From positions 1 to 7,298 of IMG/VR virus record IMGVR_UViG_2695420372_000001: a DNA stretch of 7,298 nucleotides, one strand, 5' to 3'. A model generated the notes under the pieces. The model saw only the letters and a list, made by a program, of their open reading frames with translations, was not told the DNA's origin and did no database searches. The position numbers were made by a program, and so were the translations under genes. Positions within the stretch are counted from its first letter, which is position 1. Every line of letters starts with the position of its first letter. Source of the stretch: a virus. Lineage: Duplodnaviria > Heunggongvirae > Uroviricota > Caudoviricetes. Below are positions 1 through 7,298 of this stretch, in pieces.

Positions 1-300
1 GAAGAGGATTTTCCTGCGATCGCGGTTTATCTGACGGATGCAGAGTATACCGGTGAAGAGCTGGATGCAGATACCTGGCGGGCCACGCTGCATATTGAGG
101 TGTTTTTACCGGCACAGGTACCGGATTCAGAGCTTGATCAGTGGATGGAAAGCCGGATTTACCCGGCGATGACCGCGATCCCGGCACTGGCAGGACTGAT
201 TACCACGATGGTTACGCAGGGCTATGAGTATCGTCGTGATGACGATATGGCGTTATGGAGTTCTGCGGATCTGACTTATTCCATTACATACGAGATGTGA
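1..300 (+). CDS. U: Tail terminator protein (lambda gpU-like), 5' partial; start lies upstream of the window
   Basis: Frame 1 is open from base 1 to TGA at 298-300. Translation ([99 protein letters not shown]) matches the C-terminal part of lambda gpU as I recall it. Sits immediately upstream of V, as in lambda. Confidence 0.88.
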
Positions 301-307
301 GGACGAT

Positions 308-1054
308 ATGTCAACACCAAATCCCCTTGAGCCGGTAAAAGGTGCCGGTACCACCCTGTGGGTTTATAACGGTCAGGGTGACGCCTATGCAAACCCGTTG
401 TCAGACGATGACTGGCAGCGACTGGCTAAGGTGAAGGATCTGACGCCGGGCGAGATGACGGCAGAACCCTACGATGATAACTACCTGGATGATGAAGACG
501 CGGACTGGAGCGCGACCGGGCAGGGGCAGAAGTCTGCAGGAGATACCAGTTTTACGCTGGCCTGGAAACCGGGAGAAGAAGGTCAGAAAGGGCTTATAGG
601 CTGGTTTGAAAGCGGCGATGTCCGGGCCTATAAAATCCGTTTTCCGAATGGCACGGTGGATGTGTTTCGTGGCTGGGTCAGCAGTATCGGTAAGGCCGTG
701 ACGGCGAAAGAAGTGATCACCCGCACGGTGAAAGTCACTAACGTGGGTAAACCTTCTGTAGCGGAAGAACGCAGCAAAATTACGCCGGTCACTGCGATTA
801 AGGTAACGCCGACAGGTACGGTTGAAAAAGGGAAAACAACCACCCTGACCGTTACTGTGGAACCGGAAAATGCAACGGATAAGACATTCAGGGCGATTTC
901 CGCCGATCCATCAAAAGCCACCATTAGCGTGAAAGATATGACGATTACTGTGACGGGGGTTAAGGATGGAAAAGTCAGCATCCCTGTGATTTCCGGTAAT
1001 GGTCAGTTTGCTGCGGTGGCTGAAATTACCGTTAATAATGTGCCGGGTGGCTAA
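308..1054 (+). CDS. V: Major tail tube protein (lambda gpV-like), 248 aa, with C-terminal Ig-like domain
   Basis: ORF 308..1054. N-terminus [49 protein letters not shown] closely resembles lambda gpV (246 aa). GAGGA at 299-303 precedes the ATG at 308. Position between U and G matches lambda. Confidence 0.95.
776..1039 (+). other. C-terminal Ig-like (Big_2-type) domain of the major tail protein (approx. residues 157-244)
   Basis: Thr/Val-rich beta-strand pattern ([86 protein letters not shown]) typical of bacterial Ig-like group 2 domains. Lambda gpV is known to carry such a domain. Boundaries are approximate. Confidence 0.7.
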
Positions 1055-1072
1055 AGAGCTGAGAGATAAGCG

Positions 1073-1504
1073 ATGTTCCTGAAAACAGAACAATTTGAAT
1101 ATAACGGTGTATCCGTCACGCTTTCTGAGCTGTCTGCGCTGCAGCGTATTGAGCATCTTGCCCTCCTGAAACGGCGGGCAGAAGAGGCTGAAGCCAGCGG
1201 CAACCTGCAGGTGAGTGTGGAAGATCTTGTCAGAACCGGCGCGTTTCTGGTGGCGATGTCCCTGTGGCATAACCATCCACAGAAAACGCAGTCACCGTCA
1301 ATGAATGAGGCCGTGATGAAGATAGAGCAGGAAGTGCTCACCACCTGGCCTGCCGATGCCATTGCCCGGGCGGAAGACGTGGTGTTGTGCTTGTCCGGGA
1401 TGATCGAAGCTGTTCGTCCGGATACTGATATTACTGAAGTGGCGAAAAATAACACGCTGACTGATGATGATTTTTCTGCGGGAAAGTCTTCGACGGCGAG
1501 CTGA
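1073..1504 (+). CDS. G: Tail assembly chaperone (lambda gpG-like), 143 aa
   Basis: ORF 1073..1504. MFLKTEQFEYNGVSVTLSELSALQRIEHLALLKRRAEEAEA... and ...GAFLVAMSLWHNHPQKTQSPSMNEAVMKIEQEVLTTWP match lambda gpG as recalled. Located between V and H. Confidence 0.93.
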   Translation: MFLKTEQFEYNGVSVTLSELSALQRIEHLALLKRRAEEAEASGNLQVSVEDLVRTGAFLVAMSLWHNHPQKTQSPSMNEAVMKIEQEVLTTWPADAIARAEDVVLCLSGMIEAVRPDTDITEVAKNNTLTDDDFSAGKSSTAS

Positions 1505-1944
1505 ACTTTGCCCTCAGACTGGCGCGTGAGATGGGGAGACCCGACTGGCGCGCCATGCTTGCCGGGATGACATCCACCGAATATGCCGACTGGCACCGTT
1601 TTTACCGCACGCATTATTTTCAGGATACCCAGCTGGATATGCATTTTTCCGGGCTGACGTACGCTGTACTCAGCCTGTTTTTTTGCGATCCGGATATGCA
1701 TCCCTCTGATTTCAGTCTGCTTGTCCCCCGGCATGAGGAAGAGCAGGTGGAGAGGCCGGATGAGGACAAAATGCTGATGCAGAAAGCGGCAGGACTTGCC
1801 GGAGGCGTCCGGTTCGGTGGGGACGGAGGGCGCGATATTTTATCGTCTGCGGATGTGGCGGATGTCATGGTGGATGATGCCGCATTAATGATGGCTTCAG
1901 CGGGGATTCCGGGAGGTGTGAGATATGTCCCAGCCGGTTGGTGA
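1073..1944 (+). CDS. G-T: Tail assembly chaperone G-T fusion, made by programmed -1 ribosomal frameshift at 1480-1486 (joins 1073..1486 with -1 frame 1486..1944)
   Basis: Slippery heptamer G_GGA_AAG lies at 1480-1486 in the G frame. The -1 frame is open from there (VFDGELNFALRLAREMGRPDWRAMLAGMTSTEYADWHRFY...) to TGA at 1942-1944 and matches lambda gpT. The T frame has no convincing independent start or RBS. Confidence 0.85.
1480..1486 (+). other. -1 programmed ribosomal frameshift slippery heptamer GGGAAAG (G to G-T)
   Basis: Heptamer of form X_XXY_YYZ in the G frame, 6 codons before the G stop. Same sequence and relative position as the characterised lambda G/G-T recoding site. Confidence 0.85.
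1909..1913 (+). promoter_or_regulatory. Shine-Dalgarno (GGAGG) for the tape-measure gene
   Basis: GGAGG about 11 nt upstream of ATG 1925, lying inside the 3' end of the T reading frame. Confidence 0.6.
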
Positions 1945-4498
1945 TCTTGTTATTGACCTGAGTCTGGATGCTGTCCGTTTCGATGAGCAGATGAGCCGGG
2001 TAAGGCGTCATTTTTCAGGTCTGGATACCGACGCCAGAAAAACCGCCAGTGCTGTTGAACAGGGCCTGAGCCGCCAGGCGCTGGCTGCACAAAAAGCCGG
2101 GATTTCCGTCGGGCAGTATAAAGCGGCCATGCGAACCCTGCCCGCACAGTTTACGGATATCGCCACGCAGCTTGCCGGTGGTCAGAATCCCTGGCTGATC
2201 CTGCTGCAACAGGGCGGTCAGGTGAAGGACTCCTTCGGCGGGATGATCCCCATGTTCAGGGGGCTTGCCGGTGCGATCACCCTGCCGATGGTCGGGGTCA
2301 CCTCGCTGGCGGTGGCGACAGGTGCGCTGGTGTACGCCTGGTACCAGGGAGATTCCACGCTTTCAGCGTTTAATAAAACCCTGGTTCTTTCCGGTAATCA
2401 GTCCGGACTGACTGCCGATCGTATGCTGACTCTCTCAAGAGCCGGGCAGGCAGCAGGGCTGACGTTTAACCAGGCGAGAGAGTCACTGGCAGCCCTGGTG
2501 AATGCTGGTGTGCGTGGTGGTGAACAGTTTGATGCCATCAACCAGAGTGTCGCGCGTTTTGCGTCTGCATCCGGTGTGGAGGTGGATAAAGTCGCTGAAG
2601 CCTTCGGGAAGCTGACCACTGACCCGACGTCGGGACTGATGGCGATGGCGCGCCAGTTCCGTAACGTGACGGCAGAGCAGATTGCGTATGTTGCACAGCT
2701 GCAGCGTTCCGGAGACGAGGCCGGGGCATTGCAGGCGGCGAACGATATCGCCACGAAAGGCTTTGATGAGCAGACCCGTCGCCTGAAAGAAAACATGGGA
2801 ACACTGGAGACCTGGGCGGATAAAACAGGGAAGGCATTCAAATCGATGTGGGATGCCATTCTGGATATCGGTCGTCCTGAATCCTCAGCGGATATGCTCG
2901 CCAGTGCGCAGAAGGCATTTGATGAGGCGGATAAAAAATGGCAGTGGTACCAGAGCCGGAGCCAGCGCCGGGGAAAGACCTCCTCTTTTCGTGCGAACCT
3001 TCAGGGGGCATGGGATGACAGGGAAAATGCCCGTCTGGGTCTGGCAGCGGCCACGCTGCAGTCGGATATGGAAAAAGCCGGTGAACTGGCGGCAAGGGAC
3101 CGGGCTGAGCGTGAGGCGTCACAGCTGAAGTATACCGGAGAGGCGCAGAAGGCGTATGAGCGCCTGCAGACGCCGCTGGATAAATATACCGCCCGTCAGA
3201 AAGAGCTGAATAAGGCCCTGAAAGACGGAAAAATCCTGCAGGCGGATTACAACACGCTGATGGCGTCGGCAAAAAAGGATTATGAATCGACGCTGAAAAA
3301 GCCGTCCGGTGTGAAGGTGTCTGCCGGTGAGCGCCAGGAAGACCGGGCGCATGCAGCCATGCTGGCGCTTGAAACCGAGCTCAGGACGCTGGAAAAACAC
3401 AGCGGTGTGAATGAGAAAATCAGCCAGCAGCGCCGGGATTTATGGGAAGCGGAAAATCAGTATGTGGTCCTGAAAGAGGCCGCCACGAAACGGCAGTTAT
3501 CTGAGCAGGAAAAATCCCTGCTGGCTCATGAGAAAGAGACGCTGGAGTACAAACGCCAGCTGGCTGAGCTGGGAGACAAGATTGAACACCAGAAGCGGCT
3601 GAATGAGCTGGCACAGCAGGCGGCGCGGTTTGAACAGCAGCAGAGCGCGAAGCAGGCGGCAATCAGCGCAAAAGCCCGCGGCCTCACTGACCGTCAGGCG
3701 CAGCGGGAGTCGGAAGAGCAGCGCCTTCGTGAGGTGTACGGTGATAATCCGGCTGCGCTGGCGAAGGCCACATCTGCACTGAAGAACACCTGGTCTGCGG
3801 AGGAGCAGCTTCGTGGAAGCTGGATGGCCGGGATGAAGTCCGGCTGGGGCGAGTGGGCGGAAAGTGCGACGGACAGTTTTTCGCAGGTTAAAAACGCGGC
3901 CACGCAGACCTTTGACGGTATTGCACAGAATATGGCAGCGATGCTGACCGGCAGCGAACAGAACTGGCGGGGATTCACCCGTTCGGTGCTCTCCATGCTG
4001 ACAGAAATTCTGCTTAAGCAGGCAATGGTGGGGATTGTCGGGAGTATCGGCAGCGCCATTGGCGGGGCTGTTGGTGGCGGCGCATCCGCGTCAGGCGGTA
4101 CAGCCATTCAGGCCGCTACGGCGAAATTCCATTTTGCAACCGGAGGATTTACGGGAACCGGCGGCAAATATGAGCCAGCGGGAATTGTTCACCGCGGTGA
4201 ATTCGTCTTCACGAAGGAGGCAACCAGCCGGATTGGCGTGGGGAATCTCTACCGGCTGATGCGCGGCTATGCCACCGGCGGTTATGTCGGTACACCGGGC
4301 AGCATGGCGGACAGCCGGTCGCAGGCGTCCGGGACGTTTGAGCAGAATAACCATGTGGTGATTAACAACGACGGCACGAACGGTCAGATAGGGCCACAGG
4401 CACTGAAGGCTGTTTATGACGTAGCCCGTAAGGCGGCAATGGATGTTGTGACCGGGCAGATGCGCGATGGTGGTCTGTTCTCCGGAGGTGGACGATGA
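1925..4498 (+). CDS. H: Tail tape measure protein (lambda gpH-like), 857 aa
   Basis: ORF 1925..4498. N-terminus MSQPVGDLVIDLSLDAVRFDEQMSRVRRHFSG, the internal ...GGQNPWLILLQQGGQVKDSFGGMIPMFRGLAGAITLPMVG... and the C-terminus ...MRDGGLFSGGGR match lambda gpH (853 aa) as recalled. Start overlaps the T stop by 20 nt; stop overlaps the M start (ATGA). Confidence 0.95.
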   Translation: MSQPVGDLVIDLSLDAVRFDEQMSRVRRHFSGLDTDARKTASAVEQGLSRQALAAQKAGISVGQYKAAMRTLPAQFTDIATQLAGGQNPWLILLQQGGQVKDSFGGMIPMFRGLAGAITLPMVGVTSLAVATGALVYAWYQGDSTLSAFNKTLVLSGNQSGLTADRMLTLSRAGQAAGLTFNQARESLAALVNAGVRGGEQFDAINQSVARFASASGVEVDKVAEAFGKLTTDPTSGLMAMARQFRNVTAEQIAYVAQLQRSGDEAGALQAANDIATKGFDEQTRRLKENMGTLETWADKTGKAFKSMWDAILDIGRPESSADMLASAQKAFDEADKKWQWYQSRSQRRGKTSSFRANLQGAWDDRENARLGLAAATLQSDMEKAGELAARDRAEREASQLKYTGEAQKAYERLQTPLDKYTARQKELNKALKDGKILQADYNTLMASAKKDYESTLKKPSGVKVSAGERQEDRAHAAMLALETELRTLEKHSGVNEKISQQRRDLWEAENQYVVLKEAATKRQLSEQEKSLLAHEKETLEYKRQLAELGDKIEHQKRLNELAQQAARFEQQQSAKQAAISAKARGLTDRQAQRESEEQRLREVYGDNPAALAKATSALKNTWSAEEQLRGSWMAGMKSGWGEWAESATDSFSQVKNAATQTFDGIAQNMAAMLTGSEQNWRGFTRSVLSMLTEILLKQAMVGIVGSIGSAIGGAVGGGASASGGTAIQAATAKFHFATGGFTGTGGKYEPAGIVHRGEFVFTKEATSRIGVGNLYRLMRGYATGGYVGTPGSMADSRSQASGTFEQNNHVVINNDGTNGQIGPQALKAVYDVARKAAMDVVTGQMRDGGLFSGGGR

Positions 4499-4671
4499 AA
4501 ACCTTCCGCTGGAAAGTGAAACCCGGTATGGATGTGGCTTCGGCCCCTTCTGTAAGAAAGGTGCGCTTTGGTGATGGTTATTTCCAGCGAGCGCCTGCCG
4601 GGCTGAATGCCAACCTGAAAACGTACAGCGTGACGCTTTCTGTCCCCCGTGAGGAGGCCACGGTACTGGAG
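3410..4671 (+). repeat. Direct repeat copy A (gpH 3' portion + first 59 codons of gpM); homologous to 4683-5944
   Basis: Aligns to 4683-5944 at constant offset +1273 with no indels. 3999-4671 appears identical to 5272-5944; 3410-3998 is diverged (many substitutions, mostly at synonymous or conservative positions). Confidence 0.9.
4495..4671 (+). CDS. M: Minor tail protein (lambda gpM-like) 5' fragment, 59 codons, truncated by the N gap
   Basis: ATG at 4495 overlaps the H stop (ATGA). MKTFRWKVKPGMDVASAPSVRKVRFGDGYFQRAPAGLNANLKTYSVTLSVPREEATVLE is identical to the first 59 residues of the complete M at 5768. The reading frame runs into the N run at 4672. Confidence 0.75.
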
Positions 4672-4682
4672 NNNNNNNNNNN
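4672..4682. other. Run of 11 N (assembly or scaffold gap, or masked bases)
   Basis: Literal n characters in the sequence. They sit exactly at the junction between the two repeat copies. Confidence 0.99.
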
Positions 4683-5771
4683 AATGAGAAAATCAGCCAG
4701 CAGCGCCGGGATTTGTGGAAGGCGGAGAGTCAGTTCGCGGTACTGGAGGAGGCGGCGCAACGTCGCCAGCTGTCTGCACAGGAGAAATCCCTGCTGGCGC
4801 ATAAAGATGAGACGCTGGAGTACAAACGCCAGCTGGCTGCACTTGGCGACAAGGTTACGTATCAGGAGCGCCTGAACGCGCTGGCGCAGCAGGCGGATAA
4901 ATTCGCACAGCAGCAACGGGCAAAACGGGCCGCCATTGATGCGAAAAGCCGGGGGCTGACTGACCGGCAGGCAGAACGGGAAGCCACGGAACAGCGCCTG
5001 AAGGAACAGTATGGCGATAATCCGCTGGCGCTGAATAACATCATGTCAGAGCAGAAAAAGACCTGGGCGGCTGAAGACCAGCTTCGCGGGAACTGGATGG
5101 CAGGCCTGAAGTCCGGCTGGAGTGAGTGGGAAGAGAGCGCCACGGACAGTATGTCGCAGGTAAAAAGTGCAGCCACGCAGACCTTTGATGGTATTGCACA
5201 GAATATGGCGGCGATGCTGACCGGCAGTGAGCAGAACTGGCGCAGCTTCACCCGTTCCGTGCTGTCCATGATGACAGAAATTCTGCTTAAGCAGGCAATG
5301 GTGGGGATTGTCGGGAGTATCGGCAGCGCCATTGGCGGGGCTGTTGGTGGCGGCGCATCCGCGTCAGGCGGTACAGCCATTCAGGCCGCTACGGCGAAAT
5401 TCCATTTTGCAACCGGAGGATTTACGGGAACCGGCGGCAAATATGAGCCAGCGGGAATTGTTCACCGCGGTGAATTCGTCTTCACGAAGGAGGCAACCAG
5501 CCGGATTGGCGTGGGGAATCTCTACCGGCTGATGCGCGGCTATGCCACCGGCGGTTATGTCGGTACACCGGGCAGCATGGCGGACAGCCGGTCGCAGGCG
5601 TCCGGGACGTTTGAGCAGAATAACCATGTGGTGATTAACAACGACGGCACGAACGGTCAGATAGGGCCACAGGCACTGAAGGCTGTTTATGACGTAGCCC
5701 GTAAGGCGGCAATGGATGTTGTGACCGGGCAGATGCGCGATGGTGGTCTGTTCTCCGGAGGTGGACGATGA
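4683..5771 (+). CDS. H: Tail tape measure protein (gpH) 3' fragment, second allele, 5' end cut by the gap; about 362 codons
   Basis: Open frame from 4683 (NEKISQQRRDLWKAESQFAVLEEAAQRRQLSAQEKSLLAHKDETLEYKRQLAALGDKVTYQERLNALAQQ...) to TGA at 5769-5771. Homologous to H residues ~496-857 of the first copy. The ORF track calls it from a TTG at 4713, but the frame is open back to the gap. Confidence 0.8.
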   Translation, partial: NEKISQQRRDLWKAESQFAVLEEAAQRRQLSAQEKSLLAHKDETLEYKRQLAALGDKVTYQERLNALAQQADKFAQQQRAKRAAIDAKSRGLTDRQAEREATEQRLKEQYGDNPLALNNIMSEQKKTWAAEDQLRGNWMAGLKSGWSEWEESATDSMSQVKSAATQTFDGIAQNMAAMLTGSEQNWRSFTRSVLSMMTEILLKQAMVGIVGSIGSAIGGAVGGGASASGGTAIQAATAKFHFATGGFTGTGGKYEPAGIVHRGEFVFTKEATSRIGVGNLYRLMRGYATGGYVGTPGSMADSRSQASGTFEQNNHVVINNDGTNGQIGPQALKAVYDVARKAAMDVVTGQMRDGGLFSGGGR

Positions 5772-5944
5772 AAACCTTCCGCTGGAAAGTGAAACCCGGT
5801 ATGGATGTGGCTTCGGCCCCTTCTGTAAGAAAGGTGCGCTTTGGTGATGGTTATTTCCAGCGAGCGCCTGCCGGGCTGAATGCCAACCTGAAAACGTACA
5901 GCGTGACGCTTTCTGTCCCCCGTGAGGAGGCCACGGTACTGGAG
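4683..5944 (+). repeat. Direct repeat copy B (gpH 3' portion + 5' part of gpM); homologous to 3410-4671
   Basis: See copy A. Begins immediately after the N run. Confidence 0.9.
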
Positions 5945-6097
5945 TCGTTTCTGGCTGAGCACGGGGGCTGGAAAGCCTTTCTGTGGACGCCGCCTTATGA
6001 GTGGCGGCAGATAAAGGTGACCTGCGCAAAATGGTCGTCGCGGGTCAGTATGCTGCGTGTTGAGTTCAGCGCAGAGTTTGAACAGGTGGTTAACTGA
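5768..6097 (+). CDS. M: Minor tail protein (lambda gpM-like), 109 aa
   Basis: ORF 5768..6097. MKTFRWKVKPGMDVAS...FLWTPPYEWRQIKVTCAKWSSRVSMLRVEFSAEFEQVVN matches lambda gpM as recalled. GGAGG lies 7-11 nt upstream; start overlaps the H-fragment stop (ATGA). Confidence 0.95.
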   Translation: MKTFRWKVKPGMDVASAPSVRKVRFGDGYFQRAPAGLNANLKTYSVTLSVPREEATVLESFLAEHGGWKAFLWTPPYEWRQIKVTCAKWSSRVSMLRVEFSAEFEQVVN

Positions 6098-6795
6098 TGC
6101 AGGATATCCGGCAGGAAACACTGAATGAATGCACCCGTGCGGAGCAGTCGGCCAGCGTGGTGCTCTGGGAAATCGACCTGACAGAGGTCGGTGGAGAACG
6201 TTATTTTTTCTGTAATCAGCAGAACGAAAAAGGTGAGCCGGTCACCTGGCAGGGGCGACAGTATCAGCCGTATCCCATTCAGGGGAGTGGTTTTGAACTG
6301 AATGGCAAAGGCACCAGTACGCGCCCCACGCTGGCAGTCTCTAACCTGTACGGCATGGTCACCGGGATGGCGGAAGATCTGCAGAGTCTGGTCGGCGGAA
6401 CGGTGGTCCGGCGTAAGGTTTATGCCCGTTTTCTGGATGCAGTGAACTTCGTCAACGGAAACAGCGACGCCGATCCGGAGCAGGAGGTGATCAGCCGCTG
6501 GCGCATCGAGCAGTGCAGCGAACTGAGCGCGGTGAGTGCCTCCTTTGTACTGTCCACGCCGACTGAAACGGATGGCGCTGTTTTTCCGGGTCGTATCATG
6601 CTGGCCAACACCTGCACCTGGACCTATCGCGGCGATGAGTGCGGTTATCACGGTCCGGCTGTCGCGGATGAATATGACCAGCCGACGTCCGATATCACGA
6701 AGGATAAATGCAGCAAATGCCTGAGTGGCTGTAAGTTCCGCAATAATGTCGGCAACTTTGGCGGCTTCCTTTCCATTAACAAACTTTCGCAGTAA
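6097..6795 (+). CDS. L: Minor tail (tip) protein (lambda gpL-like), 232 aa, with C-terminal cysteine cluster
   Basis: ORF 6097..6795. MQDIRQETLNECTRAEQSASVVLWEIDLTEVGGERYFFCN... matches lambda gpL (232 aa) as recalled. Start overlaps the M stop (ATGA at 6094-6099). C-terminal Cys at residues 173, 182, 205, 208 and 212. Confidence 0.95.
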   Translation: MQDIRQETLNECTRAEQSASVVLWEIDLTEVGGERYFFCNQQNEKGEPVTWQGRQYQPYPIQGSGFELNGKGTSTRPTLAVSNLYGMVTGMAEDLQSLVGGTVVRRKVYARFLDAVNFVNGNSDADPEQEVISRWRIEQCSELSAVSASFVLSTPTETDGAVFPGRIMLANTCTWTYRGDECGYHGPAVADEYDQPTSDITKDKCSKCLSGCKFRNNVGNFGGFLSINKLSQ

Positions 6796-6800
6796 ATCCC

Positions 6801-7298
6801 ATGACAGAGACAGAATCAGCGATTCTGGCGCACGCCCGGCGATGTGCGCCAGCGGAGTCGTGCGGCTTCGTGGTGAGAACGCCGGAAGGGGAAAGATATT
6901 TTCCCTGTGTGAATATCTCCGGTGAGCCGGAGGCGTATTTCCGTATGGCTCCGGAGGACTGGCTGCAGGCAGAGATGCAGGGTGAGATTGTGGCGCTGGT
7001 CCACAGTCACCCCGGTGGTCTGCCCTGGCTGAGTGAGGCCGACCGGCGGCTGCAGGTGCAGAGTGATTTGCCGTGGTGGCTGGTCTGCCGGGGGGCGATT
7101 CACAAGTTCCGCTGTGTGCCGCATCTCACCGGGCGGCGCTTTGAGCACGGGGTGACGGACTGTTACACGCTGTTCCGGGATGCTTATCATCTGGCGGGGA
7201 TTGAGATGCCGGATTTTCATCGCGAGGATGACTGGTGGCGTCACGGTCAGAATCTCTATCTGGATAATCTGGAGGCCACAGGGCTGTATCAGGTGCCG
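6801..7298 (+). CDS. K: Tail assembly protein (lambda gpK-like), 3' partial (166 codons, runs off window); JAB/MPN and NlpC/P60 motifs
   Basis: ATG at 6801, frame open to the window end. MTETESAILAHARRCAPAESCGFVV...EIVALVHSHPGGLPWLSEADRRLQVQSDLPWWLVCRG...GVTDCYTLFRDAYHLAGIEMPDFHREDDWWRHGQNLYLDNLEATGLYQVP matches lambda gpK as recalled. Absent from the ORF track only because no stop lies in the window. Confidence 0.92.
   Translation, partial: MTETESAILAHARRCAPAESCGFVVRTPEGERYFPCVNISGEPEAYFRMAPEDWLQAEMQGEIVALVHSHPGGLPWLSEADRRLQVQSDLPWWLVCRGAIHKFRCVPHLTGRRFEHGVTDCYTLFRDAYHLAGIEMPDFHREDDWWRHGQNLYLDNLEATGLYQVP

What the first reader, a model, noticed from the sequence alone, without database searches (positions are those of the whole stretch)
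3410..5944. N gap flanked by a 1.26-kb direct repeat of the tape-measure 3' end and gpM 5' end
Seen directly: 3410-4671 and 4683-5944 align at a constant +1273 offset with no indels, separated by exactly 11 N (4672-4682). The first M copy is cut at codon 59 by the gap, and the second H copy starts mid-gene right after it. The last ~673 bp of each copy (3999-4671 vs 5272-5944) look identical, while the preceding ~589 bp differ by many substitutions. The most economical reading is a scaffold join between two contigs that end in a shared repeat and come from two related lambdoid prophages. In that case the true locus is a single U-V-G-T-H-M-L-K module, and one of the two H 3' alleles belongs elsewhere in the genome. 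The alternative, a real partial tandem duplication leaving a truncated M and a promoterless H 3' fragment, would be unusual for a tail operon where tape-measure length sets tail length.
Basis: partly seen in the sequence, partly recalled or inferred. Interest (0 to 1): 0.65.

Follow-up and report, generated by a model that had tools for sequence, protein, structure and literature searches.

The report
Scaffold-join artefact in lambdoid tail genes
The apparent 1.26-kb tandem repeat of the tape-measure and gpM genes is an assembly artefact: two overlapping contigs from different lambda-like prophages were joined across an 11-N gap, and the real locus is an ordinary single-copy tail operon.

Summary
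Window 3410-4671 and 4683-5944 align at offset 1273 without indels. All 141 mismatches lie in the first 589 bp; the last 673 bp are identical. The only N run (4672-4682) sits between the copies.

The window is one whole draft record, CYCD01000062.1 of GCA_001286045.1. Deleting 4672-5944 gives a sequence that is 99.7-100% identical and contiguous on 14 N-free public contigs, including the closed chromosome CP170299.1; a 15th diverges further downstream.

The divergent 589 bp of copy 2 matches the common phage-434/lambda-type H allele, with 0 mismatches inside intact tape-measure genes of closed genomes. The M-codon-59-to-H junction occurs in none of 5,426 closed E. coli genomes, nor in the viral, species-representative genome or metagenome collections.

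The right contig starts exactly at a 32-nt exact match between the alleles, and a contig in an unrelated scaffold starts at the same base. Other N-joined lambdoid scaffolds show the same false repeat.

One refinement: the right contig switches from 434-type to the local allele within a 119-nt shared stretch. It is therefore either chimeric or from a recombinant second prophage. Interest is low.

The parts
1..300 (+). 3' part of gpU (tail terminator), cut by the start of the record
   Evidence: Pfam Phage_tail_U on the record's own gene call; 100% identical to L003.
308..1054 (+). gpV major tail protein with C-terminal Big_2 domain (248 aa)
   Evidence: Phage_TTP_12, Big_2.
1073..1944 (+). gpG (1073-1504) and the gpT frame (ORF 1531-1944), with slippery heptamer G GGA AAG at 1480-1486 for the -1 G-T fusion
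   Evidence: The heptamer sits in the G frame as X XXY YYZ and the T ORF is in the -1 frame. Assigning it to the lambda G/GT frameshift rests on established knowledge of lambda.
1925..4498 (+). Complete tape-measure gene H (857 aa), local 'A' allele; the real gene of this locus
   Evidence: The exact protein is on at least 24 public contigs, always followed by a full M. The DNA is 100% identical to closed genome CP170299.1.
3410..3441 (+). 32-nt maximal exact match between the A and 434-type (B) alleles; its copy at 4683-4714 is the first 32 nt of the right contig
   Evidence: Only 5 exact matches of at least 28 nt exist between the two H alleles upstream of 3999. An unrelated scaffold (L113) has a contig starting at the same base.
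3410..4671 (+). Repeat copy 1: the genuine H 3' end plus M codons 1-59, and the end of the left contig
4495..4671 (+). M' : the first 59 codons of gpM, cut by the scaffold gap (a false partial gene)
   Evidence: In all N-free contigs the sequence continues directly into window 5945 onwards.
4672..4682 (.). 11-N scaffold gap, the only undetermined bases in the record
4683..5271 (+). Foreign segment: the middle of a 434/lambda-type H allele (B) that belongs to another prophage's tape-measure gene
   Evidence: 76% identical to copy 1. It has 0 mismatches to L010 and L011, 3 to L002 and 5 to phage 434, in each case inside an intact H gene. A query made of this segment plus the next 129 nt (4683-5400) is at least 99% identical in 1,697 complete-genome records.
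5272..5944 (+). Redundant second copy of 3999-4671 (100% identical); the false duplicate
   Evidence: 434-type references differ from it at 5391, 5456, 5468, 5477, 5522 and further positions, so from 5391 at the latest it is local-allele sequence.
4683..5771 (+). H' : a 362-codon promoterless H 3' fragment called as an edge-cut gene (a false partial gene)
   Evidence: this exact product is on record only in CYCD01000062.1.
5768..6097 (+). Complete gpM (109 aa)
6097..6795 (+). gpL (232 aa)
6801..7298 (+). 5' part of gpK (Prok-JAB), cut by the end of the record

Best explanation
The repeat is a false tandem duplication made when a short-read draft assembly was scaffolded. The strain carries a lambda-like prophage (P1) with an uncommon tape-measure allele. 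It very probably also carries at least one more lambdoid prophage with the common 434/lambda-type allele.

The two tail modules share short exact matches, so the assembly breaks there. One contig ran from U through the P1 H gene into M and stopped at 4671. A second contig began at a 32-nt exact match in the middle of H, followed the other prophage's allele for 589 nt, and then ran on through the H 3' end, M, L and K.

Read pairs correctly linked the first contig to the downstream tail genes. The contig ends overlap homologously by 1262 nt, but the first 589 nt of that overlap are only 76% identical. The overlap was therefore not merged, and a short N gap was inserted.

This produced a truncated M', an orphan H' fragment and a 673-nt exact duplicate, none of which exists in the cell.

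Shown: single-copy continuity in independent assemblies, the foreign origin of 4683-5271, the absence of the junction elsewhere, and the recurrence of the same artefact. Inferred: which assembler and scaffolder were used, and where the second prophage lies in this genome.
For: 1. The window is a complete 7,298-bp WGS record, CYCD01000062.1 of GCA_001286045.1. Its gene calls are cut on both sides of the Ns.

2. Window 1-4671 is directly followed by window 5945-7298 on N-free contigs. Both parts are 100% identical in closed genome CP170299.1 (L003/L021) and in L006. In L004, L005, L008, L009, L015, L016, L018-L020 and L022-L024 they are 99.7-100% identical and contiguous over the part each contig holds. 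In L007 the downstream part is 98.1%. Together these are 15 contigs from isolates and metagenomes, some 100-390 kb long.

3. Segment 4683-5271 has 0 mismatches to intact tape-measure genes of closed genomes NZ_CP027355.1 and NZ_CP033378.1, and 5 mismatches to phage 434. The junction query is 98.8% identical to phage 434 and 95.5% to lambda.

4. A junction-specific 300-nt query found 0 of 5,426 complete E. coli genomes with the M59-to-H junction. An exact pattern allowing a 0-30 nt gap found 0 hits in IMG/VR, the GTDB species-representative genomes and JGI metagenomes, while it does find the window itself. In phage records the two halves always lie 1262 nt apart in the single-copy order.

5. 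The right contig starts on the first base of a 32-nt maximal exact match between the alleles, one of only 5 matches of at least 28 nt upstream of 3999 in H. An unrelated scaffold, IMGVR_UViG_2690316188_000001, has a contig starting at the same base after its own N.

6. The same artefact recurs. Eight N joins in the fetched IMG/VR lambdoid loci had enough flanking sequence to test. At six of them the sequence after the N is a direct repeat (84-99% identical, 0.56-2.8 kb) of sequence that ends at or within a few bases of the N (L013 at both joins, L054, L070, L113, L145). L013 strings three H pieces in series, including window 2623-4561 and the window's right contig at 100%.

7. Complete E. coli genomes hold a median of 2 and up to 8 copies of this module.

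8. False duplications separated by an assembly gap are a described class of assembly error (PMC9516828). Greedy scaffolding and gap filling are acknowledged sources of false joins in bacterial pipelines (PMC5320598).
Against: The reads and the other contigs of GCA_001286045.1 could not be examined. The presence and location of a second prophage in this strain, and read depth over the two copies, are therefore inferred and not shown.

The left contig ends at 4671, which is 10 nt before the end of the exact match with 434-type references (4584-4681). It does not end at a match boundary, and neither this nor the gap length of 11 is explained.

The junction from the 434-type allele to the local allele seen in the right contig also occurs in one other scaffold (L013 segment 3). 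That is compatible with a real recombinant prophage as well as with a chimeric contig.
Confidence: 0.96

Rival explanations
1. The join is still an artefact, but the right contig is genuine. Under this reading the strain carries a second, recombinant prophage (P3). Its H gene is 434-type up to about codon 690, and its H 3' end, M, L and K are identical to P1 after homologous exchange between co-resident prophages. The scaffold then joins the P1 left arm to the P3 or collapsed right arm.
For: The switch from the 434-type allele to the local allele lies inside a 119-nt exact match (3999-4117), a plausible site for homologous recombination. The same junction occurs in a second, differently broken scaffold, L013 segment 3, which extends 500 nt further upstream in 434-type sequence. 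Lambdoid tail modules are visibly mosaic: L017 combines a B-like H with a P1-type L protein.
Against: The junction is found only in N-joined scaffolds of genomes that also carry both parental sequences. In IMG/VR the parental 434-type form occurs in at least 120 contigs, the parental local form in 2, and the recombinant form only in L013. It has 0 hits in the metagenome collection. No closed E. coli genome matches 4683-6100 better than 98.9% over its full length. L013 also contains the unrecombined 434-type 3' end (segment 1), so a real P3 would require three modules in that genome. A 119-nt exact match is long enough to collapse in a short-read graph and permit a chimeric path.
Confidence: 0.25
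2. A real partial tandem duplication in the prophage. Illegitimate recombination between two co-infecting or co-resident lambdoid phages joined M codon 59 of one to H codon 496 of the other. This would leave an intact H, a truncated M', an H' fragment and an intact M.
For: Both copies are open reading frames with substitutions concentrated at third codon positions. The extra 1.27 kb need not prevent packaging (inference). The Ns hide the junction, so it cannot be excluded from the sequence alone.
Against: The junction is exactly the unsequenced part of the record. Deleting it restores 99.7-100% identity to 14 N-free contigs. The junction is absent from 5,426 closed genomes and three large collections. 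Copy 2 starts at an inter-allele exact match where another assembly also breaks. The same pattern recurs at other N joins with different end points. A duplication of local sequence would not give 76% identity next to 100% identity.
Confidence: 0.02

Closest known systems
False duplications flanking assembly gaps in scaffolded short-read assemblies (the 'heterotype' false duplications of Ko et al. 2022, PMC9516828; Kelley and Salzberg 2010, as cited there)
   Same: Two diverged versions of one locus are placed in tandem and separated by an assembly gap. This creates false partial genes, and the duplication disappears in better assemblies.
   Different: In those cases the two versions are haplotypes of a diploid genome. 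Here they are paralogous tail modules of different prophages in a haploid bacterial genome, and one contig may also be a chimera across a 119-nt exact match.
Phage lambda / phage 434 tail module U-V-G-T-H-M-L-K
   Same: Gene order, Pfam families, the G GGA AAG slippery site and the H length (857 aa, against 853-859 aa in relatives) are all as in lambda. Copy 2's foreign segment has 5 mismatches in 589 nt to phage 434.
   Different: Between 3442 and 3998 the local H allele is only 76% identical to the 434/lambda type, and it is uncommon: only 31 complete-genome records are at least 95% identical to window 3300-4671.
Collapsed or mis-resolved multi-copy prophage repeats in draft E. coli assemblies
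   Same: Contigs break at exact matches between co-resident lambdoid prophages. The module is present 2-8 times per complete genome.
   Different: Instead of simply fragmenting, this assembly was scaffolded across the break, which turned the ambiguity into an apparent duplication.

Membership tests
False duplication at a scaffold gap (assembly artefact) | [quoted passage not shown] | tested here: met
   11 N at 4672-4682 lie exactly between the copies and are the only N run in the record.
False duplication at a scaffold gap (assembly artefact) | Independent assemblies of the same locus are single-copy | tested here: met
   Window 1-4671 and 5945-7298 are adjacent on 15 N-free contigs, including closed genome CP170299.1. 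Identity is 99.7-100% on 14 of them and 98.1% downstream on L007.
False duplication at a scaffold gap (assembly artefact) | The copies are alternative versions (allele or paralogue) of one locus and not copies of each other | tested here: met
   Segment 4683-5271 is 76% identical to copy 1 but has 0 mismatches to 434-type H genes elsewhere.
False duplication at a scaffold gap (assembly artefact) | Contig ends coincide with exact matches shared between the repeat versions | tested here: inconclusive
   The right contig starts exactly at a 32-nt maximal exact match, and this break point recurs in L113. The left contig ends 10 nt short of a match end.
False duplication at a scaffold gap (assembly artefact) | Abnormal read depth and discordant read pairs over the copies | not testable with these tools
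Genuine tandem duplication | A defined novel junction sequence that can be reproduced in independent data | tested here: not met
   The junction is unsequenced in the record. It has 0 hits in 5,426 closed E. coli genomes, IMG/VR, the GTDB species-representative genomes, JGI metagenomes and phage records.
Genuine tandem duplication | Copies derive from one another, with uniform similarity along their length | tested here: not met
   589 nt at 76% identity abut 673 nt at 100% identity.
Lambda-like siphovirus tail module | The ordered genes U, V, G, T, H, M, L, K with their Pfam families | tested here: met
   Phage_tail_U, Phage_TTP_12+Big_2, Phage_TAC_2, Phage_tail_T, TMP_2+Tape_meas_lam_C, Phage_min_tail, Phage_tail_L and Prok-JAB, in that order.
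Lambda-like siphovirus tail module | A -1 programmed frameshift site joining G to T | tested here: met
   G GGA AAG at 1480-1486 lies in the G frame and the T ORF is in the -1 frame. Frameshifting itself was not assayed.

The most novel reading that the evidence does not exclude
The right contig may not be a chimera. It could report a real second prophage whose tape-measure gene recombined with the resident P1 prophage inside a 119-nt identical stretch. The two co-resident prophages would then share identical H 3' end, M, L and K genes, which would be an example of recent homologous exchange between prophages in one chromosome. The scaffold join would still be an artefact.
Probability: 0.25. 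Interest if true: 0.15.

Novelty: not a real feature. Interest (0 to 1): 0.05.

Why it matters
Biologically it does not matter: the locus is an ordinary lambda-like tail operon.

Practically, the artefact has put two false partial proteins into public databases, a 59-aa M' and a 362-aa H'. The same error recurs in other N-joined E. coli prophage scaffolds, including IMG/VR entries. Apparent tape-measure duplications or odd tape-measure lengths in draft-derived prophage catalogues should therefore be discounted whenever an N run sits between the copies.

Tried and rejected
1. I searched for the source or for another instance of the junction, using an exact pattern across the Ns and a variable gap of 0-30 nt. 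Neither found a hit in IMG/VR, and the variable-gap pattern found none in the GTDB species-representative genomes or JGI metagenomes. The source was found instead by looking up the edge-cut 362-aa product. The alternative 352-aa TTG-start ORF is not on record.

2. I tried to read the closed genome CP170299.1 in the annotated E. coli collection, to look for a second prophage with the 434-type allele. The record is not in that collection, so I could not demonstrate both alleles in one closed genome.

3. I looked for an N-free contig carrying the right contig's junction from the 434-type to the local allele. There is none; only L013 segment 3 has it. The gpL look-up found a mosaic prophage (L017) with a B-like H and the same L protein, but its H 3' end is only 86% identical, so it is not the missing parent.

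4. The only near-80% hit of the junction query in closed genomes (NZ_CP009106.2 and its twin record) is a decayed prophage. There a small H remnant precedes M in the normal order, so it is not an M-to-H junction.

5. I searched the literature and the supplement of the Sanger assembly-pipeline paper for the accessions, to identify the assembler. Nothing was found, so no specific software is claimed. My recollection that SSPACE writes a single N for a negative gap, which would fit the single-N joins in the IMG/VR scaffolds, is unverified.

6. I did not run protein homology, structure prediction or RNA searches, because the question is one of assembly and not of function.


Full report
**Observation**

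The window has a single N run, 4672-4682. Window 3410-4671 and 4683-5944 align at a constant offset of 1273 with no indels. There are 141 mismatches, all between 3442 and 3998. The first 589 nt are therefore 76% identical and the last 673 nt (3999-4671 = 5272-5944) are identical. The repeat finder recovered the diverged part of the repeat at the same spacing.

Mismatches fall 29/27/85 on codon positions 1/2/3. Of the differing codons, 53 are synonymous and 46 non-synonymous. Both copies are open in the H frame. The first M copy (from 4495) is cut after codon 59. The second H copy begins on a codon boundary at 4683 and ends at 5771.

**What the window is**

Looking up the edge-cut 362-aa product of 4683-5771 returned one contig, CYCD01000062.1 of NCBI assembly GCA_001286045.1. 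It is 7,298 bp long, so it is the whole window. Its recorded gene calls and Pfam hits give, in order:
- U (partial)
- V with a Big_2 domain
- G and T
- H (TMP_2 + Tape_meas_lam_C, 857 aa)
- M' of 59 aa
- H' of 362 aa
- M and L
- K (partial)

The window is therefore a small scaffold of a draft E. coli genome that covers a lambda-like tail module.

**The real locus is single-copy**

The exact 857-aa H protein is carried by at least 24 public contigs. In every place shown it is followed by one full M, then L, K, I and J. At the DNA level, window 1-4671 is immediately followed by window 5945-7298 on N-free contigs:
- Both parts are 100% identical in the closed chromosome CP170299.1 (L003, positions 8077-12747 and 12748-14101).
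- The same holds at 99.7-100% in L004, L005, L006 and L008, and over the shorter stretch that L009 holds.
- It also holds in nine further contigs found through the gpL protein: L015, L016, L018-L020 and L022-L024, plus L021, which is CP170299.1 again. Several are 100-390 kb long and two come from metagenome assemblies.
- In L007 the two parts are also adjacent, but the downstream part is only 98.1% identical.

Deleting 4672-5944 (11 N plus 1262 nt) therefore reproduces a sequence seen repeatedly and contiguously elsewhere.

**Where copy 2 comes from**

The divergent 589 nt (4683-5271) match a different and very common H allele. They have 0 mismatches to closed-genome prophages in NZ_CP027355.1 and NZ_CP033378.1, 3 mismatches to NZ_CP148583.1 and 5 to phage 434. 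A query that extends this segment by 129 nt (4683-5400) is at least 99% identical in 1,697 complete-genome records. The junction query is 98.8% identical to phage 434 and 95.5% to lambda. In all of these the segment lies inside an intact 853-859-aa tape-measure gene, preceded by a normal H 5' half and followed by one M.

The local allele is uncommon: only 31 complete-genome records are at least 95% identical to window 3300-4671. Complete E. coli genomes hold a median of 2 and up to 8 copies of this module, so two alleles in one strain is the expected situation.

**Is the junction ever real?**

I built a 300-nt query from the last 150 nt before the Ns and the first 150 nt after them. At that length the two halves of a normal locus cannot be merged into one hit. 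It found 0 of 5,426 complete genomes with a place covering at least 80% of the query. The nearest hit is a decayed prophage with an H remnant upstream of M, in the normal order.

An exact pattern allowing 0-30 nt between the halves matches the window itself. It matches nothing in IMG/VR, the GTDB species-representative genomes or JGI metagenomes. In phage records the halves always lie 1262 nt apart in the single-copy arrangement.

**Signature of the assembly graph**

Between P1 and 434-type prophages there are only 5 exact matches of at least 28 nt in H upstream of 3999. The right contig starts on the first base of one of them (3410-3441, 32 nt). The preceding base differs between the alleles. 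An unrelated IMG/VR scaffold, IMGVR_UViG_2690316188_000001, has a contig that starts after its own N at exactly the same base, AATGAGAAAATC.... A break point that recurs at an inter-allele exact match is what a k-mer-graph assembler produces. It is not what a biological duplication end point looks like.

The left contig end at 4671 is less tidy. It lies 10 nt before the end of an exact match (4584-4681). The 11 Ns span exactly to the first position that differs between the alleles (4682, equivalent to 5955). I have no explanation for this, and it may be coincidence.

**The artefact recurs**

Eight N joins in the fetched IMG/VR lambdoid loci had enough flanking sequence to test. At six of them the sequence after the N is a direct repeat (84-99% identical, 0.56-2.8 kb) of sequence that ends at or within a few bases of the N. 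These are L013 (both joins), L054, L070, L113 and L145.

L013 (IMGVR_UViG_2695420863_000001) is the most instructive. It strings three H pieces together across two single-N joins:
- Segment 1 is a 434-type module running up to window-equivalent 5654.
- Segment 2 is window 2623-4561 at 100% identity.
- Segment 3 repeats the last 1472 nt of segment 1 with only 7 differences, and from L013 position 10681 it is identical to the window's right contig (window 4683-7075).

All four 434-type references differ from copy 2 at 5391, 5456, 5468, 5477 and 5522, and at further positions that vary between them. The exact match between the alleles is therefore only 119 nt (3999-4117), not 673 nt. The right contig is 434-type up to 5390 at the latest and local-allele from 5391 at the latest.

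A 134-nt junction pattern spanning this switch gave the following counts:
- The parental local form occurs in 2 contigs.
- The recombinant form occurs in 1 contig, L013 segment 3, and has 0 hits in the metagenome collection.

No closed genome matches 4683-6100 better than 98.9% over its full length.

So the right contig is either a chimeric path through the 119-nt shared stretch, which I favour, or evidence of a recombinant second prophage. In both cases the tandem arrangement is false, and 4683-5271 belongs to another tape-measure gene.

**Comparison with what is known**

False duplications separated by an assembly gap, which create false partial genes, are a described class of assembly error (PMC9516828). 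Bacterial pipelines that scaffold and gap-fill greedily acknowledge false joins (PMC5320598). I could not establish which software produced this record.

The underlying locus is a standard lambda-type tail module. It includes the G GGA AAG slippery site at 1480-1486, with T in the -1 frame.

**Verdict**

- The duplication is not a real feature.
- Interest is low.

The remaining uncertainty is whether the right contig is a chimera or a recombinant prophage, and where the second prophage lies. Settling this needs the reads or the other contigs of GCA_001286045.1, or a PCR or long-read experiment.

Noticed in passing
window 1480-1486 (with G at 1073-1504 and the T ORF at 1531-1944): The slippery heptamer G GGA AAG lies in the G reading frame near its end, with the T ORF in the -1 frame. 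This is the classical lambda G/GT programmed frameshift arrangement.
   Followed up: partly
window 4672-4682 and 4584-4681: The left contig stops 10 nt before the end of an exact match with 434-type prophages. The 11-N run reaches exactly to the first position that differs between the alleles (4682, equivalent to 5955). This is unexplained and possibly coincidence.
   Followed up: partly
L013 (IMGVR_UViG_2695420863_000001) 1-13073, with N at 8240 and 10180: This IMG/VR 'viral genome' strings three partial tape-measure copies in series across single-N joins: 434-type, then the local allele, then 434-type switching to the local allele. It shares 100% identical sequence with the window, so it is probably from a closely related strain or the same sequencing project.
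   Followed up: yes
L054, L070, L113/L053, L145 (IMG/VR contigs 2695420699_000004, 2671180724_000001, 2690316188_000001, 2695420718_000005): Further lambdoid prophage scaffolds in which a single N is flanked by homologous direct repeats of 0.56-2.8 kb. False duplications at N joins appear to be common in draft-derived prophage entries.
   Followed up: partly
window 3442-3998, compared with L002, L010, L011 and L012: The tape-measure gene is sharply mosaic: 76% identity to the 434/lambda type over 557 nt, then abruptly near-identical. The local allele is rare in closed genomes (31 records at least 95% identical to window 3300-4671). For the 434-type allele, 1,697 records are at least 99% identical to window 4683-5400.
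   Followed up: partly
L001 (NZ_AP022298.1) 894-2000: In this closed genome an IS200C element is inserted in gpU of a related prophage, splitting the tail-terminator gene.
   Followed up: no
L146 (NZ_CP009106.2) 4348-5524: A decayed lambdoid prophage in which a deletion removes the region from portal to most of H. A 129-nt H remnant is left directly upstream of an intact M-L-K-I block.
   Followed up: partly
L017 (GCA_032603635.1 ABNRGJ010000003.1) 7096-10699: This prophage has a 434-like H middle (98.3%), a third type of H 3' end (86% to the window) and an L protein identical to the window's. It is another example of fine-scale mosaicism in this module.
   Followed up: no
L010 (NZ_CP027355.1) 4915-5612: gpL is annotated as frameshifted in this closed-genome prophage, whose H middle is identical to window 4683-5271.
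   Followed up: no
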